From Escherichia coli (GTDB lineage: Bacteria > Pseudomonadota > Gammaproteobacteria > Enterobacterales > Enterobacteriaceae), in NCBI RefSeq assembly GCF_048403405.1, contig NZ_CP183129.1: DNA of 64,000 nt; one strand, 5' to 3'. The notes beneath the pieces are model-generated. The model had not been told where the DNA came from. It saw only the letters and a program-made list of their open reading frames with translations, and did not search any database. Positions 34,542 through 41,165 of this stretch are shown one piece after another. The number at the start of each line of letters is the position of its first letter. Within the stretch, counting starts at the first letter, position 1. The translations under genes were made by a program, and so were the position numbers.

Positions 34542-36456
34542 TCACTCCTCCGGACAGCTTCGCTGCCAGTTCTTTAAGGGTTGGCCGGGTCGTCTCTTCT
34601 TCCCGGGATTTTGCCAGTACAGCCAGATCAAGCTGCCAGCGTTGCACGGACACACGTAATGCCGCGTAGGCATACACCAGGCAGTCCAGCGCTTCGTTAC
34701 GCCGCTTTTTGTTATCCCACAGCAGACGCATCTTTCCTTTTTCCCACTTCTCCACAAGCTCTTCCGCGACCAGTTGCTGCGCCTCTGTCTGCGAAAAAAT
34801 CTCCGGATCATCAGGAAAACGGATGGCATACGACGTGGCTTCATCCGCAGGCGTGGGCTCGGCTTTCATACGGGCATAGAGAATTTCTTTTGCGGTGTCC
34901 GTCCCCACTTCACACAGATAAACGCCCCGCTGATTGCGGGTTTTCGGCATGGTGATCACCGGCTTGCCATAGACAGACGCGCCTTTTACCGGCAGCACAC
35001 GGAAAACACCGTGTTTTTTTGACCTCTGGTAGACGATTTCACCATCGATCCCCCCGGTGTCCCAGCAGACACGGGAAATGGTCATTTCGGTGCCATCCGC
35101 ATGGCGGTATTTTTTGTTGATCGCCGCATCCACACGTAACAGCGTCTCTTCCTCATCAGGACGCCCCATAATGATGATTTTATCCACCAGAAAAGCTTCC
35201 TCTCCCGGTGCCCATCCCCAGACATACATCTCAAAACGGTTTCGCTGCGAGTCAATGCCCGCCGTCAGATAAACCACCCGGGCAGGCACCGCCGCCGTGT
35301 AACGCACAACCTTATCCATCAGCACCTGGTGATCGAGTTTTTCGCCCACGGCCTCTTCCCAGGTCTCGCCCAGCGTGGTGTTCACAAAGGTTTTCAGGCC
35401 GTTGGGATCTTTCAGTGCATCCAGCCAGTCATAGACTATCTGTACCCAGGTGGTGAACGGACTGTACGCTGTCCAGATATGGAACGTGATGGAGCGCGGC
35501 GGCGGAATTTCATTATCCGCGGCGCTGAAAAACGTCAGACCGTCACGGGTCCACATCCCCGTGTTTTCACAGATCCACCGCCCGTTGCTCTGGTCAAGCT
35601 CAGACTGATGGATCACGCAGCCATGATGTTCACAGAGGTAGAAAACGCTTTCGGGGCTGTCCTTCTCCCATTTAAGGCCAAAAGGCGTGGATTCATCGCC
35701 AAATTTCAGATACTGCTCCTCCCCACAGTGTGGGCAGGGCACATAAAAACGCATGAAATGCGCCGACTCGTTGGCCGCTTTTTCGATCTGGCAGGTGCCT
35801 TTGATTTTAGGCGTCGAGCCGCGAATGGATTTGGGCCATACAGAGCCCTCAATACGTTTATCCCCAAGCAGGGTTGGCGAACCCTCTTTTTCGACATCCG
35901 GTTCGAACGAGGAAAGTTCGTCATAGCAGACCACGTCCACGGATTTTTCACGGTAGTTTTTGGCGGCAGCGCCGCCCAGGCACCAGAAACCCACACCCGA
36001 TGAAAAGCGTTTCAGCGTGAGGGTATTGTCACGATGTTTACGCCCCAGCCATGGAAAAAGGTCTTTCAGACATGGCACATCCCGAATCGTCGCCTCCACG
36101 TGAGACTTCATAAAATCTTCAGCGGCAGAATCCGTGGGCTGAAAAAGCAGACTGTTTCGGGATTTATGCTCAATAAAATACCCGACCACCCCCAGCAACA
36201 TCTTTGTATAGCCAACACGGGCAGATTTAATCAGATTAACAGTCCGGATCTGATCATTCCCCATGCTGTTCATGATGGCGATCTGGAACGGCAGCGTTTT
36301 CCATTCTCCCTCACCATATGAAGATTCTTTAGGCAGATAATAATTTTGATCAGCCCATTCAACTGGCGTCACCGGCAATGCCCTTATCAGGGGCTGTAAT
36401 GCTGTTGTGACAGCACTCATCATATTATTCAGTTGTTGCTCTGATATATTCATCGA
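34525..36456 (-). CDS. A: terminase large subunit A
   Basis: Start set at MNISEQQLNN... ; collinear with lambda gpA (EWADxNYYLPKES, Walker-type ATPase, C-terminal nuclease). Confidence 0.95.
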   Translation of the reverse strand, partial: SMNISEQQLNNMMSAVTTALQPLIRALPVTPVEWADQNYYLPKESSYGEGEWKTLPFQIAIMNSMGNDQIRTVNLIKSARVGYTKMLLGVVGYFIEHKSRNSLLFQPTDSAAEDFMKSHVEATIRDVPCLKDLFPWLGRKHRDNTLTLKRFSSGVGFWCLGGAAAKNYREKSVDVVCYDELSSFEPDVEKEGSPTLLGDKRIEGSVWPKSIRGSTPKIKGTCQIEKAANESAHFMRFYVPCPHCGEEQYLKFGDESTPFGLKWEKDSPESVFYLCEHHGCVIHQSELDQSNGRWICENTGMWTRDGLTFFSAADNEIPPPRSITFHIWTAYSPFTTWVQIVYDWLDALKDPNGLKTFVNTTLGETWEEAVGEKLDHQVLMDKVVRYTAAVPARVVYLTAGIDSQRNRFEMYVWGWAPGEEAFLVDKIIIMGRPDEEETLLRVDAAINKKYRHADGTEMTISRVCWDTGGIDGEIVYQRSKKHGVFRVLPVKGASVYGKPVITMPKTRNQRGVYLCEVGTDTAKEILYARMKAEPTPADEATSYAIRFPDDPEIFSQTEAQQLVAEELVEKWEKGKMRLLWDNKKRRNEALDCLVYAYAALRVSVQRWQLDLAVLAKSREEETTRPTLKELAAKLSGGVNGYSR

Positions 36457-36934
36457 GTAAATCCGGTAATTTATCCCCCGCCCGCGCACACTGATTTGCC
36501 CCCTTCGCAATAAGGGTTTTCAGATGGTCAAGATGGCGCGGTGTTAAATCAGGAAACTGTCGCTGCATGGATAAAGGGATGGAATCAAGCGTACTGGATA
36601 ACGCCATTGCCAGCTTGCTGAGGGCAAAAATACAGAACCCGGTATCAATAAGTTTTCCTTTTGACACCTCATTTTTTAACTGCTGTGTAACAGCCTGTTC
36701 TGCTGTCAGTTCCCATCTGGCAATAAGCAATTTCTCCTCATAGTCGTCTTCGCTATCGCCATCAGGCACATCGTTTTTACTTCTTCTCAGATACGATATG
36801 TAAAAATCGCGCCAGGCATCCAGATCCAGTTGCCCTCGCTTATTCGATATCGGGGCACCCGGCAATTTCTGCAATCTGCGAAGCTGGCGATCGGTCAGAC
36901 TTAAATGCCTGGCAACTTCAGTCTGCGTAGCCAC
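36425..36934 (-). CDS. Nu1: terminase small subunit Nu1
   Basis: 169-aa ORF adjacent to cos; C-terminal half similar to lambda Nu1. Confidence 0.85.
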   Translation of the reverse strand: MATQTEVARHLSLTDRQLRRLQKLPGAPISNKRGQLDLDAWRDFYISYLRRSKNDVPDGDSEDDYEEKLLIARWELTAEQAVTQQLKNEVSKGKLIDTGFCIFALSKLAMALSSTLDSIPLSMQRQFPDLTPRHLDHLKTLIAKGANQCARAGDKLPDLLDEYIRATTE

Positions 36935-37129: not shown

Positions 37130-37277
37130 CGTAACCTGTTGGATCGACGGAAAGGACCCGAAAACGAGAATAATTATCACTTACAGCAAGAATCGAATCT
37201 GATCTATTATGGTGCTTGCTATTATGTGCCGGCACAAGTGCGTCGTTTACCGTCATTTCACACAGAGGCATCATCAA

Positions 37278-37590: not shown

Positions 37591-37770
37591 ATGGTTAGTA
37601 AAAGCAAGGCGCATTGCCGCCGCATGCTGCAGGCATTGCAACAGACGAGAGCAGGTATTTTTGACCAGTTGGAAAACTGCCAGCATACTTTGCCCGAGTA
37701 TATCGCCATCTCATCGGAAACCAGTGCAACTCTTATTCATCGGGTTCCACCAGAGAAAAAGAAGAAATGA
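37591..37770 (+). CDS. hypothetical 59-aa protein
   Basis: ORF with strong RBS (AGAGGAAGGAAAG) following the secreted peptide gene; hairpin immediately downstream. Confidence 0.3.
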   Translation: MVSKSKAHCRRMLQALQQTRAGIFDQLENCQHTLPEYIAISSETSATLIHRVPPEKKKK

Positions 37771-37892: not shown

Positions 37893-38219
37893 TCAAGGAC
37901 GTGACGGCGTAAAGATAAATTGTCTCTTCACTCCCTGACAGGGGCGATTCTTTTCAAATCGCCATTTCGCCATGGCCTTCACCACTTCATCACGAAACAA
38001 ATTATGAGGCTCTGAGCGGAGAAAAACGATCCGTGTCACAGTCCCATCAGCACCAATATCGAACTTAACCTCAACCAGCCCCTTGATATAATTTGCTGCA
38101 GCATATTCCGGATATCGTGGATACACCGTCACTAATTGCCGGGGCTCATCAGCTTTTTGCTGCGAGCATCCCACTGCCAGGACAGATAACAGAAAAAGTA
38201 GTAAAAGGCGTCTTTTCAT
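37893..38219 (-). CDS. lipoprotein with TonB C-terminal-like domain (108 aa)
   Basis: Signal peptide + lipobox (LLLLFLLSVLAVGC, Ser at +2); body aligns to TonB C-terminal domain (YPxxA...G.V.VKFDxxxDGxV...P...F..EV..AM..WRxE). Confidence 0.6.
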   Translation of the reverse strand: MKRRLLLLFLLSVLAVGCSQQKADEPRQLVTVYPRYPEYAAANYIKGLVEVKFDIGADGTVTRIVFLRSEPHNLFRDEVVKAMAKWRFEKNRPCQGVKRQFIFTPSRP

Positions 38220-38529
38220 TTTTATTCCTACGGGTCTTATTCTGACAATATATCCTGTGTTCCAGACTGCCACATCACCACATCCTGTGCCATTATCTGA
38301 CTCACATTACATACATCGCATCGGGATACAGTAGTAGCACTTTCTGTAATACAGCTTCCTGTTTCTTCCACCATCGCACCGGGATAAACCCGCGAATCAT
38401 TAACGCGGTAAAAACCCGGTGTGCATCGTTTTTAATTATCCCCGCACACTCGCGCAGAGGAGTCTCCCTGTCGGGCTGCGGTCTCTGTTAATGAGGGAAT
38501 ATAGCGACGATACGGCGCATCAACAAAAC

Positions 38530-39003
38530 TTATTTCAGGCACTGAGTGCGGATATAGTCCTGTGCCCCTTCCAGTTGCTTGTGCATCGTCATCAGCCGCT
38601 CTCTGAGGGTGAAATAATCCCGTGTAACGGTGTCTGCCAGTTGGGGGCCGGTTGCATTATCCACGCCGGAGGTGGTGGGGGCTTCACGCACGGAGCCTGG
38701 ACAGGTGGCGTTGATCCGCAGGCGCTTACGACCAGCGGCAACGTCAGCGCGAAGAGTTTCATTTTCAGCTCTCGCATCGGCTAATTCCCTCGAGTATTTT
38801 GCATCGAGCGCAGCAACATCGCGCTGGCGCACCTGCATATCAGTAATGGTTGCGTTCGCCAGCTTCAGTTCACTGGCTTTGTTATCGCGCTGCGCTTTGT
38901 AGGTAATCGCGTTATCACGGTAATGGTCTGTTGCCATCCACAGCGCACCACAGGCCACCAGCAGAATAACGATAAACGCGGAAAGCATTCGGTTTATGTT
39001 CAC
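38530..39003 (-). CDS. Rz: i-spanin Rz
   Basis: 157-aa ORF similar to lambda Rz ([15 protein letters not shown] ... [10 protein letters not shown] ... [17 protein letters not shown]). Confidence 0.9.
38592..38777 (-). CDS. Rz1: o-spanin Rz1 (embedded in +1 frame of Rz)
   Basis: 61-aa ORF with lipobox and proline-rich core [14 protein letters not shown], as in lambda Rz1. Confidence 0.8.
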
Positions 39004-39484: not shown

Positions 39485-40018
39485 TTATCTGTCGATACCC
39501 CAGCACGCCAGCGCGCTCTCCTGGTCACGACGGGATACCTGACCGTAACAGTTGTTTGAACGAATACGGCAGTCTCTGCCACCGTCCTTAATCCACCAGC
39601 GAATCGCTTCGCAGGCACCTTTTCGATCACCAGCATTAATTCGTCTGTAAAACGTCGACGGGAAACACTTACCGGGATCAATGTTGTACGGACAGAATGA
39701 CGCGATCCCCGCTTTCTGGGGTTCGGTCAGCGGCACTCTGATGTTTTTCTCCACCCACGCCAGCGCTTTATCACGCTCAATGGCGTTAACCTGGTCGCAT
39801 TTTTCCTTCGACAACTTCATGCCCGGAACGACAGGTTTGCCATCCACCATGATGGCACCACGGCAGATGGTCCAGATACCTGCACCATCACGGTATGCCG
39901 TGGTGTGGTTGCCTTCCTTTTCATCCAGAAACTGGTCGAGAATGTCAGGCGCAGGCGCACCAGCGGCAATCAGCGCCAGAACGGCAGCCGACAGGCCGTA
40001 TTTGATTTTGGTGTTCAT
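39485..40018 (-). CDS. R: SAR-endolysin (GH24 lysozyme R)
   Basis: 177-aa ORF; N-terminal Gly/Ala-rich weakly hydrophobic SAR segment then T4-lysozyme-like E...D...T catalytic pattern (EKEGNHTTAYRDGAGIWTICRG). Confidence 0.85.
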   Translation of the reverse strand: MNTKIKYGLSAAVLALIAAGAPAPDILDQFLDEKEGNHTTAYRDGAGIWTICRGAIMVDGKPVVPGMKLSKEKCDQVNAIERDKALAWVEKNIRVPLTEPQKAGIASFCPYNIDPGKCFPSTFYRRINAGDRKGACEAIRWWIKDGGRDCRIRSNNCYGQVSRRDQESALACWGIDR

Positions 40019-40054: not shown

Positions 40055-40945
40055 CTAAATACGCACTTTAAGATAAGTCAGCCCCGGATGAAGCCAGTAA
40101 GCCGGCACTTTTTTAAAGGGTGGAGTATTAAAATCACGAAGAAGAGCCTCCCGCACAATTGCATCCTTATCAGCACCACTGGCCAGCGCTTCAATCTCAG
40201 CGGCTACCTGAAGATATCCCATGCAACGGCCAACGCGCTTCATCAGCCCCTGCTTTTTATTGTTCTTCAGGTAATCAATGGCAAATTCAATGAGCTCCTC
40301 ACTGTGCTGGTGCGATGGAGGTGTTACTTTCCCATTTTCTGAGATGGTTATTTTCCCAGCATCACCGGATACAACAAAGGATGGCCGGTTACACTCCCAT
40401 TCCGGGTCACTGAAATTATCATTATGAATACTGAAACACTCTGCGAGATTTCTGCTCATCACTTTCCGACAATAATCGTCAAACGCAGCAAACTGCTTTT
40501 CATCGCCAGAAGGCACCAATATCGACCATTTCTTATTCAGCTCAACGACGTAGCTCTCCAGTTTTTCAATACGTGATTCAACATCATCTTTTTCTGACCG
40601 CAGTGTTGACGGCGGCATCTTCAGAGAACAAGTAATTCTTCCCGGTAGCTTTCCTTTGTAGGTTATCAACATATCCTGCGCCTCTAAAATTACGGGGCGC
40701 TTTTCCGGCAACGGTTCGTTCCATTCACATAACCCGGCAGCAACATCCATGAAAAACTGCTTCGCCTGCTTTTTCGCCTCAGCTTCGTAAAACTCCAGCG
40801 TGGCACCTTCAGTACGGTCAAGACTAATCGCCACATCTGGCAACAACAGCGACGCTTGCCCGTCACCTTCCGACTTCACAGTAACAGTAACCTTATCCCC
40901 GTAATTATTTATCCCCTTAACAACCAGTTCATATTTTTTATTCAT
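40055..40945 (-). CDS. hypothetical protein (296 aa) between holin and endolysin
   Basis: Start abuts holin stop with GGGGAGAG RBS; no family recognised by inspection. Confidence 0.55.
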   Translation of the reverse strand: MNKKYELVVKGINNYGDKVTVTVKSEGDGQASLLLPDVAISLDRTEGATLEFYEAEAKKQAKQFFMDVAAGLCEWNEPLPEKRPVILEAQDMLITYKGKLPGRITCSLKMPPSTLRSEKDDVESRIEKLESYVVELNKKWSILVPSGDEKQFAAFDDYCRKVMSRNLAECFSIHNDNFSDPEWECNRPSFVVSGDAGKITISENGKVTPPSHQHSEELIEFAIDYLKNNKKQGLMKRVGRCMGYLQVAAEIEALASGADKDAIVREALLRDFNTPPFKKVPAYWLHPGLTYLKVRI

Positions 40946-40949
40946 CACT

Positions 40950-41165
40950 TTACTCTCCCCGCGCCGCCTTACGCCGGTCCTCTTTGATTTTGAAATACAG
41001 GTTAGTCAGATATGTCAGCAGCCCAAACAGCAGACTCCCCAGCACGCCTATTGCCGCCCACTGAGACGGGGAAACCCTGTCCAGCAACTGCAGGAACCAG
41101 TAGCCCGTTCCCACCGCTGACGTGGTGTATGACACACCTGTTGTGATTTTTTCCATCTGGTACAT
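40950..41165 (-). CDS. S: pinholin (S21-type holin, dual-start MYQM)
   Basis: 71-aa ORF nearly collinear with phage 21 S ([45 protein letters not shown]); two in-frame starts. Confidence 0.85.

What the first reader, a model, noticed from the sequence alone, without database searches (positions are those of the whole stretch)
37893..38219. Prophage outer-membrane lipoprotein carrying a TonB C-terminal-like domain
The 108-aa product has a lipoprotein signal (…LAVGC, Ser at +2, so predicted Lol-sorted to the outer membrane) and its body aligns motif-for-motif with the TonB C-terminal domain (YP…G.V.VKFD…DG.V…P…F…EV…AM…WR.E). It sits at a classic lysogenic-conversion position between Rz/Rz1 and cos, where lambda carries bor. 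A periplasm-facing TonB-CTD decoy could bind TonB boxes of FhuA/BtuB-type receptors and block TonB-dependent phage or colicin entry, analogous in outcome to Cor/Llp exclusion but by a different mechanism. I know of no characterised phage protein of this type.
Basis: partly seen in the sequence, partly recalled or inferred. Interest (0 to 1): 0.6.

Follow-up and report, generated by a model that had tools for sequence, protein, structure and literature searches.

The report
Prophage lipoprotein with TonB C-terminal domain
A real, very common prophage gene (identical in classic phage 21 and in about a fifth of complete E. coli genomes) encodes a lipid-anchored copy of only the receptor-docking end of the host TonB protein; the protein is made in a lysogen, but its proposed job as a decoy against TonB-dependent phages and colicins has not been tested.

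Summary
Window 37893-38219 (minus strand) encodes a 108-aa protein with a lipoprotein signal (Cys18, Ser+2). The rest is a complete TonB C-terminal domain (Pfam E=9e-13). The AF2 model matches E. coli TonB CTD at TM 0.88, rmsd about 1 Å.

It is not a new gene. The identical protein is in phage 21 ("TonB C-terminal domain protein") and in CFT073 (c1565). Its DNA is in 1616 of 5426 complete E. coli genomes. Relatives occupy the same post-lysis, pre-terminase slot in Salmonella, Klebsiella, Rahnella and Pantoea prophages. dN/dS between the two E. coli alleles is 0.12.

Published CFT073 proteomics detects the identical protein without induction. Only three other proteins of that prophage are detected, including Iss/Bor and NmpC, so it behaves as a lysogenic-conversion gene.

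I found no functional study. A TonB-box decoy is the best-supported mechanism, because overexpressed periplasmic TonB fragments inhibit TonB-dependent uptake. It remains inference, and expression in siderophore-dependent UPEC argues that any block is partial or selective. My one in-silico docking test did not dock the FhuA TonB box and had no positive control.

Interest is moderate.

The parts
37893..38219 (-). CDS, 108 aa: lipoprotein precursor carrying a stand-alone TonB C-terminal domain (WP_000830178.1; identical to phage 21 CPT_21_73 and CFT073 c1565)
   Evidence: ORF list and sequence. 100% identical tblastn hits in phage 21, ev017 and Perceval. Same WP accession in strain 7/2 and CFT073. 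dN/dS 0.12 against the second allele.
38166..38219 (-). Signal peptide and lipobox (aa 1-18, MKRRLLLLFLLSVLAVG|C). Cys18 is the predicted lipidated residue and Ser19 at +2 predicts Lol sorting to the outer membrane.
   Evidence: Read directly from the sequence. A Cys preceded by a lipobox-like sequence is conserved in the lipobox-bearing homologs, with +2 = S/T/A and never D. Lipidation and localisation are inferred, not shown.
37911..38144 (-). TonB_C domain (aa 26-103, equivalent to E. coli TonB 153-230). The protein ends at the equivalent of TonB residue 235.
   Evidence: Pfam PF03544 E=9.1e-13. TIGR01352 above cutoff. PDB phmmer E=1.4e-14. AF2 pLDDT 86.4 with strand-helix-strand-strand-helix-strand order. 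Foldseek TM 0.88 to 1u07.
38226..38229 (-). Shine-Dalgarno AGGA, 6 nt before the ATG
   Evidence: Sequence. Matches the RBS annotated in phage 21.
38237..38374 (-). 45-aa upstream ORF that travels with the gene in phage 21 (CPT_21_72). It is not annotated in strain 7/2's PGAP table, its sequence diverges in JLK-2012, and its coding status is uncertain.
   Evidence: No PHROG or PADLOC hit.
38355..38520 (-). Non-coding block immediately after the Rz stop codon. Between the allele-A and allele-B loci it is more conserved than the coding sequence. It is a candidate regulatory region for the module.
   Evidence: Alignment of window, phage 21 and JLK-2012 upstream regions. No Rfam match. Fold z-score only -1.8. 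No convincing sigma-70 consensus.
38530..39003 (-). Rz i-spanin, with the Rz1 o-spanin embedded at 38592-38777 (context: end of the lysis cassette)
   Evidence: PHROG 13 E=1.6e-73 and PHROG 3198 E=1.3e-29.
37130..37159 (-). cosQ to the right cohesive end, placed by homology with phage 21
   Evidence: Window 38519-37130 is 98.7% identical to the terminal 1391 bp of the phage 21 record. cosQ is annotated 23-29 nt from that end.
36425..36934 (-). Terminase small subunit (context: start of the packaging genes)
   Evidence: PHROG 57 and 1790. PGAP annotation in strain 7/2.

Best explanation
This is a prophage accessory (moron-type, lysogenic-conversion) gene. [quoted passage not shown] About eight flexible residues then hold a complete TonB C-terminal domain against the periplasmic face of the outer membrane. 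It has no membrane anchor for ExbB/ExbD and no proline-rich rod, so it cannot transduce energy.

The most likely activity is competitive. The domain would occupy TonB-box strands by the same beta-strand pairing that TonB uses. The targets could be the TonB boxes of TonB-dependent transporters, those of incoming group B colicins, or both. This would dampen TonB-dependent import. The expected benefit to the lysogen is partial protection from heterologous TonB-dependent phages (T1/phi80 type), group B colicins and siderophore-microcins, at some cost to siderophore and B12 uptake.

Shown: the gene is real and under purifying selection; it has a lipoprotein signal and the TonB CTD fold; it occupies a conserved accessory slot; the identical protein is present in an uninduced lysogen.

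Inferred: outer-membrane location, TonB-box binding, and the phenotype.
For: - The domain is complete, with sequence and fold matching the TonB CTD, including chains solved bound to BtuB and FhuA.
- The core residues Y163/P164, F180, G186, F202, W213, Y215 (Phe here) and F230 all have counterparts (alignment).
- The lipobox is conserved across the lipobox-bearing homologs, with a non-Asp +2 residue. The tether is short: the first 10 mature residues lack secondary structure and average pLDDT 60.
- Purifying selection: dN/dS 0.12.
- Relatives occupy the same slot (after the spanins, before the terminase, same strand) in unrelated lysis and packaging backgrounds. These are phage 21, JLK-2012, and Klebsiella, Salmonella, Rahnella and Pantoea prophages.
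- In the phage collection, all 15 records with a match look like temperate phages or prophages: phage 21, Stx-converting phages and prophage-derived records.
- The identical protein is detected by LC-MS in uninduced CFT073. Apart from one DUF1828 protein, the only other detected products of that prophage are the known conversion proteins Iss/Bor and NmpC. No lysis, terminase, capsid or tail protein is detected.
- Precedent: overexpressed periplasmic TonB domain inhibits TonB-dependent iron import, and a TonB-box pentapeptide reduces phi80 infection and colicin killing (PMC9841981 citing Howard 2001 and Tuckman & Osburne 1992).
- Phage 21 itself enters through LamB, so it can carry a TonB antagonist without blocking its own spread.
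Against:
- The AF2 fusion of the mature protein to the FhuA TonB box left the peptide disordered (pLDDT below 50, no strand). There was no positive control, so this is inconclusive.
- TonB residues that I recall from the literature as contacting TonB boxes or the FhuA cork (R158, Q160, R166) are not conserved (T31, Y33, Y39 in the alignment).
- At 38-40% identity to TonB it is no closer than specialised paralogs with narrow partner ranges, such as FusB.
- The inhibition precedent needed overexpression.
- The gene is carried by CFT073, UTI89 and ST131 and the protein is detected in CFT073. By established knowledge these strains depend on TonB-driven siderophore uptake, so inhibition cannot be strong and general.
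- Non-phage chromosomal relatives in Gibbsiella and Erwinia show the family is not inherently an anti-phage device.
- No own promoter could be recognised.
Confidence: 0.4

Rival explanations
1. Specialised binder rather than general decoy. The domain uses its beta-sheet edge for one particular partner. That partner could be a single transporter, the TonB box of an incoming bacteriocin or phage protein, or host TonB or ExbD itself (a heterodimer trap). It would then modulate one pathway, as dedicated TonB paralogs (HasB, FusB) serve single receptors.
For: Identity to TonB is only 38-40%, comparable to FusB, which appears among the fold hits. The residues equivalent to R158, Q160 and R166 differ. 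The protein is detected in CFT073, a siderophore-dependent UPEC, without evident loss of TonB function. A Pantoea prophage homolog sits directly after a nuclease bacteriocin and its immunity gene.
Against: Beta-strand pairing is mostly backbone-mediated and tends to be promiscuous. No candidate partner gene travels with the module. The Pantoea association is a single case in a slot that collects unrelated accessory genes, such as Acb2-like, KilA-N and bor. An eight-residue tether to the outer membrane makes reaching ExbD unlikely.
Confidence: 0.2
2. Envelope or host-interaction factor. It is an outer-membrane lipoprotein whose TonB_C domain binds peptidoglycan or another envelope component. 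It would contribute to envelope stability or survival in the host rather than to exclusion.
For: It lies next to iss/bor in phage 21 and CFT073. Like Iss, it is detected as protein and raised at 37 °C against 23 °C (RNA log2FC 1.07, protein 0.85). Chromosomal relatives in Erwinia and Gibbsiella lie near ECF sigma/anti-sigma and AhpC-type genes, not iron-uptake genes. From my own knowledge, peptidoglycan binding by the TonB C-terminus has been reported (Kaserer et al. 2008).
Against: No evidence for peptidoglycan binding by this protein. The RNA increase at 37 °C is shared by the prophage's Q, holin and lysozyme genes upstream, so it may be regional. The fold's best-documented activity is TonB-box binding.
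Confidence: 0.2
3. Lysis accessory. This follows the PHROG 1267 label 'Rz-like spanin' and the gene's position in the late operon.
For: PHROG 1267 E=5e-43. The gene is on the same strand and directly downstream of the spanins in every phage context seen. No recognisable own promoter.
Against: A canonical Rz/Rz1 pair is already present. The protein is a folded alpha/beta domain rather than a short proline-rich o-spanin, and it has no C-terminal transmembrane segment as a u-spanin would. All phage-collection hits look temperate. In CFT073 the protein is detected when the holin and endolysin are not.
Confidence: 0.05
4. Functionless passenger: a captured tonB fragment that hitch-hikes with the cos region.
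For: Old annotations call it 'partial' or 'TonB fragment'. About 1200 genomes carry near-identical copies, which could reflect clonal spread.
Against: dN/dS is 0.12 across alleles with saturated synonymous divergence. The domain is complete with an added, conserved lipobox. In a neighbour-joining tree (no bootstrap) it groups with the other short, mostly lipoprotein homologs, apart from canonical enterobacterial TonB CTDs. The protein is detected in a lysogen.
Confidence: 0.05

Closest known systems
E. coli TonB, C-terminal domain (PDB 1U07, 1XX3; in complex 2GSK with BtuB, 2GRX with FhuA)
   Same: Same domain by sequence (Pfam TonB_C; 38-40% identity; gapless alignment to TonB 150-230) and by predicted fold (TM 0.88, rmsd about 1 Å). 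Core aromatic residues and the YP motif are kept.
   Different: It has no N-terminal ExbB/ExbD-coupled anchor and no proline-rich rod. It is anchored to the opposite (outer) membrane by a lipid and stops at the equivalent of TonB residue 235. The residues equivalent to R158, Q160 and R166 differ. It cannot transduce energy.
Engineered periplasmic TonB fragments (Howard, Herrmann, Stratilo & Braun 2001)
   Same: A TonB periplasmic domain detached from the energy source and delivered to the periplasm. Such fragments inhibit TonB-dependent iron import (cited in PMC9841981). This is the functional model proposed here.
   Different: Those were laboratory constructs of E. coli TonB itself, soluble and overexpressed. 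This is a natural, diverged, lipid-anchored protein at native expression levels, and its activity is untested.
Cor (phi80, N15, HK022) and Llp (T5) superinfection-exclusion lipoproteins
   Same: Small phage-encoded lipoproteins of the inner leaflet of the outer membrane that act on the periplasmic face of a TonB-dependent transporter (bioRxiv 10.64898/2026.03.26.714494).
   Different: Unrelated fold and sequence. Cor and Llp are specific for FhuA, the phage's own receptor, and Llp acts allosterically. Phage 21, which carries this gene, uses LamB, so any exclusion would be of other phages and independent of the receptor.
Bor/Iss and Lom (lambda-type lysogenic-conversion outer-membrane proteins)
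   Same: Accessory genes of lambdoid prophages expressed in the lysogen. bor/iss is the immediate neighbour in phage 21 and CFT073 and is co-detected in the CFT073 proteome.
   Different: No sequence or fold relation (Pfam finds only TonB_C). It is transcribed in the late-gene direction, whereas bor is on the opposite strand.
Specialised TonB paralogs (HasB, FusB, Vibrio TonB2)
   Same: Diverged TonB_C domains at a similar distance. FusB 7ZC8 is among the top fold hits, and TonB2 and HasB appear further down the list.
   Different: Those are full-length, inner-membrane-anchored energy transducers that work with ExbBD-type motors.

Membership tests
TonB energy transducer (TonB proper) | C-terminal TonB_C domain | tested here: met
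   PF03544 E=9.1e-13. TIGR01352 47.4 bits against a cutoff of 27.1. Foldseek TM 0.88 to 1u07.
TonB energy transducer (TonB proper) | N-terminal uncleaved transmembrane anchor that couples to ExbB/ExbD | tested here: not met
   The N-terminus is a cleavable lipoprotein signal ending in a lipobox Cys18. All NCBIfam TonB equivalog models score 45-69 bits against cutoffs of 265-448 and match only their C-terminal ends.
TonB energy transducer (TonB proper) | Proline-rich periplasm-spanning spacer | tested here: not met
   Only about 8 residues (SQQKADEP) lie between Cys18 and the start of the domain, and the whole protein is 108 aa.
Cor/Llp exclusion lipoproteins | Small phage-encoded outer-membrane lipoprotein | tested here: met
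   Lipobox with non-Asp +2. Localisation itself is not testable with these tools.
Cor/Llp exclusion lipoproteins | Cor/Llp sequence family or fold | tested here: not met
   Pfam finds only TonB_C. All significant PDB fold hits are TonB CTDs, and no Llp/FhuA entry appears in the 50 matches listed.
Cor/Llp exclusion lipoproteins | Inactivates the phage's own receptor FhuA | not testable with these tools
   Phage 21, which carries the identical gene, uses LamB, so self-exclusion through FhuA is not expected.
Spanins (PHROG 1267 label 'Rz-like spanin') | o-spanin: short proline-rich lipoprotein encoded within or adjoining the i-spanin gene. u-spanin: lipoprotein signal plus a C-terminal transmembrane segment. 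| tested here: not met
   It shares only the lipoprotein signal. It is a folded domain with pLDDT 86, has no C-terminal hydrophobic segment, and lies 310 bp past Rz. A canonical Rz1 is embedded in Rz at 38592-38777. The PHROG label is best read as a mis-annotation.
Bor/Iss lipoproteins | Bor family sequence | tested here: not met
   No Bor hit in Pfam. A separate bor/iss gene lies beside it in phage 21 and CFT073.
Moron / lysogenic-conversion gene | Accessory gene in a slot that varies among related phages | tested here: met
   Same post-lysis, pre-terminase slot in six host genera with different neighbours: bor, KilA-N, Acb2-like, and a bacteriocin with its immunity gene.
Moron / lysogenic-conversion gene | Expressed from the uninduced prophage | tested here: met
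   The identical protein (WP_000830178.1 = CFT073 c1565) is detected by LC-MS. No lysis, terminase, capsid or tail protein of the same prophage is detected (PMC12890032 Table S1). This is published data for another strain, not for this window's strain.
Moron / lysogenic-conversion gene | Own promoter and terminator | tested here: inconclusive
   No sigma-70 consensus reaching the tool's 9-of-12 criterion, and only sub-consensus matches with poor spacing in my relaxed scan. A conserved upstream block exists whose role is unknown.
Moron / lysogenic-conversion gene | Confers a phenotype on the host | not testable with these tools
   No experimental report found in ten literature searches.

The most novel reading that the evidence does not exclude
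Lambdoid prophages of Enterobacterales make, in the lysogenic state, a natural outer-membrane-tethered TonB-CTD decoy. It competes with TonB for TonB boxes and so gives lysogens graded, receptor-independent protection against TonB-dependent phages, group B colicins and siderophore-microcins. This would be an exclusion and bacteriocin-tolerance mechanism distinct from Cor/Llp, present in about 30% of complete E. coli genomes and in classic phage 21.
Probability: 0.35. Interest if true: 0.7.

Novelty: new variant of a known kind. Interest (0 to 1): 0.5.

Why it matters
If the decoy reading holds, one small prophage gene would tune the whole TonB-dependent import system. The gene is carried by about 30% of complete E. 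coli genomes, including CFT073, UTI89, ST131 and, as a second allele, O157:H7. TonB-dependent import is the gateway for siderophores, vitamin B12, several phages, group B colicins, siderophore-microcins and siderophore-conjugated antibiotics.

It would add a receptor-independent class to phage-encoded exclusion. It could also explain strain-to-strain differences in sensitivity to colicins, microcins and phages.

The idea is cheap to test, because phage 21 and K-12, which lacks the gene, are standard laboratory material. If it fails, the gene is still an abundant, expressed, conserved prophage lipoprotein with no assigned function.

Tried and rejected
1. AF2 docking test. I fused the mature protein through a 15-residue GS linker to FhuA residues 1-20 (alignment A2). 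The domain folded with block-mean pLDDT of 89-97, but the TonB box stayed disordered (pLDDT below 50, no strand).
2. Own promoter. The tool's scan found none on the coding strand. My relaxed scan found only weak, badly spaced candidates.
3. Conserved upstream block as an RNA element. No Rfam hit at E≤1 and a fold z-score of -1.8. Not pursued further.
4. Known defence systems. No PADLOC hit for the gene or its neighbours.
5. Viral structure library (BFVD). No match at E≤0.001, so nothing is learned from characterised viral relatives.
6. Spanin reading from PHROG 1267. Rejected on anatomy (see the membership test).
7. Self-exclusion. Rejected because phage 21 uses LamB, and the C-terminus of this prophage's J protein has many homologs among Escherichia and Stx-converting phage tail-tip J proteins. 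I noticed no cor gene but ran no dedicated cor search.
8. Recent capture of the host tonB 3' end. Disfavoured. Identity to TonB is 38-40%, and in a neighbour-joining tree without bootstrap the protein groups with other short, mostly lipoprotein homologs.
9. Bacteriocin link from the Pantoea prophage. The neighbouring 769-aa nuclease bacteriocin has a glycine-rich N-terminus and no obvious TonB box, so this single association is not used as evidence.
10. Literature. Howard 2001 itself is not held and is cited second-hand.
Full report
**1. The observation**

The ATG is at 38219 and the stop at 37893-37895, giving 108 aa. An AGGA ribosome-binding site lies 6 nt upstream. A longer GTG-initiated reading to 38273 exists, but both PGAP and the phage 21 annotators use the ATG.

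The N-terminus (MKRR, a hydrophobic run, then AVG-C18, with S at +2) reads as a lipoprotein signal. The cysteine and a lipobox-like context are kept in the second E. coli allele and in the short homologs that carry a lipobox (Salmonella, Klebsiella, Gibbsiella, Rahnella and Erwinia clusters). None of these has Asp at +2. Outer-membrane sorting follows from the established +2 rule. It is inferred, not shown.

The body of the protein is a TonB C-terminal domain.
- Pfam TonB_C gives E=9.1e-13.
- TIGR01352 scores above its cutoff.
- phmmer against PDB finds E. coli TonB CTD at E=1.4e-14, with residues 23-103 aligned without gaps to TonB 150-230.
- An AF2 model built on 69 homologs has pLDDT 86.4.
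- Foldseek against PDB returns E. coli TonB CTD chains as the top five hits, at TM 0.79-0.88 and rmsd 0.9-1.3 Å. These include the chains solved in complex with BtuB (2GSK) and FhuA (2GRX).

The genomic position is also confirmed. Holin, endolysin and Rz/Rz1 lie upstream. Window 38519-37130 is 98.7% identical to the right-terminal 1391 bp of phage 21, which places the cohesive end at about 37130. The terminase genes follow.

**2. It is a known gene with no known function**

The identical protein is encoded by classic lambdoid phage 21 (OL657228, CPT_21_73), where it is annotated "TonB C-terminal domain protein". It is also in phages ev017 and Perceval and in several ECOR-derived phages. ev017's record labels it [quoted passage not shown]. 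The phage 21 genome announcement does not discuss it (PMC9119081).

The gene's DNA is present in 1616 of 5426 complete E. coli genomes.
- 1201 genomes carry it at 99% identity or more, including UTI89 and ST131 strains.
- 392 genomes carry a second allele at about 73% nucleotide identity, typical of O157:H7 and other EHEC.
- PGAP names it "TonB family protein".

The two alleles differ at saturating synonymous distance (dS about 1.5) with dN/dS 0.12. The protein is therefore under clear purifying selection.

PHROGs files it in family 1267, labelled "Rz-like spanin". The anatomy contradicts that label. The protein is a folded domain, has no C-terminal membrane segment, and lies 310 bp past a canonical Rz/Rz1 pair.

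PADLOC has no model for it, and the BFVD viral structure library holds no significant relative.

**3. The wider family**

An exhaustive profile search found a group of short (about 105-135 aa) stand-alone exported TonB_C proteins in Enterobacterales. Most have a lipobox and some have an ordinary signal peptide. In a neighbour-joining tree without bootstrap support they group apart from canonical enterobacterial TonB CTDs. This argues against a recent capture of the host tonB 3' end.

Wherever I could read the context of a phage-borne member, it sat in the same slot: after the spanins, before the terminase, on the late-gene strand. The lysis and packaging modules around it were unrelated.
- E. 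coli phage 21 and JLK-2012.
- Klebsiella prophages.
- A contig whose protein clusters with Salmonella enterica sequences.
- Rahnella prophages.
- Pantoea prophages.

The neighbours in that slot are other accessory genes:
- bor in phage 21;
- KilA-N in JLK-2012;
- an Acb2/Tad1-like gene in Klebsiella;
- a nuclease bacteriocin with its immunity gene in Pantoea.

Chromosomal, non-phage members exist in Gibbsiella and Erwinia, next to AhpC-type or ECF-sigma genes.

**4. Expression**

No convincing sigma-70 promoter precedes the gene. From sequence alone one would therefore expect late-operon expression.

Published data say otherwise for the identical protein. CFT073 c1565 (C_RS07335) carries the same accession, WP_000830178.1, as strain 7/2, whose DNA is identical to the window here. 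In Table S1 of PMC12890032, c1565 RNA rises at 37 °C against 23 °C (log2FC 1.07, padj 0.002). The protein is quantified by LC-MS (log2FC 0.85, padj 2.6e-4).

Of roughly fifty genes of that prophage, only four proteins are detected: a DUF1828 protein, the porin NmpC, Iss/Bor and this one. No holin, endolysin, terminase, capsid or tail protein is detected. The protein is thus made in the uninduced lysogen, in company with known conversion factors. The promoter remains unidentified. A 165-nt block just after the Rz stop is more conserved between the two allele loci than the coding sequence. It is a candidate regulatory region, but it has no Rfam match and no marked structure.

**5. Mechanism**

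What the anatomy allows is narrow.
- The protein cannot be an energy transducer, because it lacks the ExbB/ExbD-coupled anchor and the proline-rich rod.
- If it is lipidated and Lol-sorted, an eight-residue tether holds a TonB CTD at the periplasmic face of the outer membrane. That is where the TonB boxes of transporters, and of colicins in transit, appear.

The best-documented activity of this fold is beta-strand pairing with TonB boxes. Detaching the TonB periplasmic domain from its motor and overexpressing it in the periplasm inhibits TonB-dependent iron import. A TonB-box pentapeptide reduces phi80 infection and colicin killing (Howard 2001 and Tuckman & Osburne 1992, as summarised in PMC9841981). 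The original Howard paper is not in the library.

I therefore rank a competitive TonB-box decoy first, at confidence 0.4. Because phage 21 enters through LamB, any protection would be against other phages and against bacteriocins, not against its own kind.

Four points count against a strong version of this idea.
- The gene is carried by uropathogenic strains (CFT073, UTI89, ST131) and the protein is detected in CFT073. By established knowledge these strains depend on TonB-driven siderophore uptake.
- TonB residues that I recall as contacting TonB boxes or the FhuA cork (R158, Q160, R166) are not conserved.
- The precedent needed overexpression.
- My AF2 fusion to the FhuA TonB box did not dock the peptide. 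It had no positive control, so it is inconclusive.

The rivals are:
- a specialised binder with one partner (0.2);
- an envelope or host-survival factor co-expressed with Iss (0.2);
- a lysis accessory (0.05);
- a functionless passenger (0.05).

**6. Comparison and verdict**

The protein works like, or at least is built like, the engineered periplasmic TonB fragments. In outcome it would resemble Cor/Llp. It is not a member of the TonB energy-transducer family: two of three defining features were tested and not met. It is not a member of the Cor/Llp, Bor or spanin families either. It is a lipoprotein variant of the TonB_C domain family that prophages carry as a conversion-type accessory gene.

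The claim of novelty applies to the function only, not to the gene. I rate it a new variant of a known kind with moderate interest (0.5). The hypothesis is specific, ecologically relevant and testable in a few simple experiments with standard strains.

Noticed in passing
window 38355-38520 (minus strand), just after the Rz stop codon: A non-coding block of about 165 nt is nearly identical in the window, phage 21 and JLK-2012, although the downstream TonB_C coding sequences of the two alleles are only about 73% identical. It contains a GTGTGC...GCACAC inverted repeat. It could be a regulatory element or a recombination joint of the module.
   Followed up: partly
window 40055-40948 (minus strand): A 297-aa ORF (PHROG 1085, unknown function, E=1e-189) sits between the holin (about 40950-41165) and the endolysin (39485-40018). 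In strain 7/2, which is otherwise identical around the finding, a YdfR-family pseudogene is annotated in that interval instead.
   Followed up: no
window 38065-38092 (plus strand): The best sigma-70-like match in the region (TTAACC, 16 nt, TATAAT; 10 of 12 with a TG extension) lies inside the TonB_C gene on the antisense strand. About three such matches are expected by chance in the scanned region.
   Followed up: no
PHROG family 1267: The family that contains this protein is labelled 'Rz-like spanin'. The members seen here are folded TonB_C lipoproteins encoded downstream of genuine Rz/Rz1 pairs, so the label looks like an annotation error that could spread.
   Followed up: yes
L018 2278-5324 (Pantoea agglomerans prophage): A TonB_C homolog with an ordinary signal peptide follows directly after a 769-aa Pyocin_S/colicin-DNase bacteriocin and its immunity gene, all between the spanin and the packaging genes. 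The bacteriocin has a glycine-rich N-terminus and no obvious TonB box.
   Followed up: partly
L020-L022 4379-5369 (Klebsiella prophages): The TonB_C lipoprotein gene lies two genes after an Acb2/Tad1-hairpin (anti-CBASS/anti-Thoeris sponge-like) gene. This shows that the post-lysis slot collects counter-defence and conversion genes.
   Followed up: no
L006 6001-6402 (Gibbsiella) and L016 5001-5348 (Erwinia): Chromosomal, non-prophage lipoprotein TonB_C homologs lie next to ahpCF/GST/GGDEF genes or ECF sigma/NrsF/DsbD/AhpC-type genes. No iron-uptake genes are nearby, and their function is unknown.
   Followed up: partly
CFT073 prophage c1532-c1595 (L023; PMC12890032 Table S1): The RNAs of the Q antiterminator, nmpC, holin and lysozyme of this prophage all rise at 37 °C against 23 °C (log2FC 2.0 to 6.5), while the structural genes do not. 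The late-proximal accessory region therefore seems thermoregulated as a unit.
   Followed up: no
window 37591-37770 (plus strand): A 59-aa ORF between the TonB_C gene and cos matches PHROG 4843 (unknown function, E=4e-47) and is annotated by PGAP. Phage 21's annotators instead call two small ORFs on the opposite strand in this interval.
   Followed up: no
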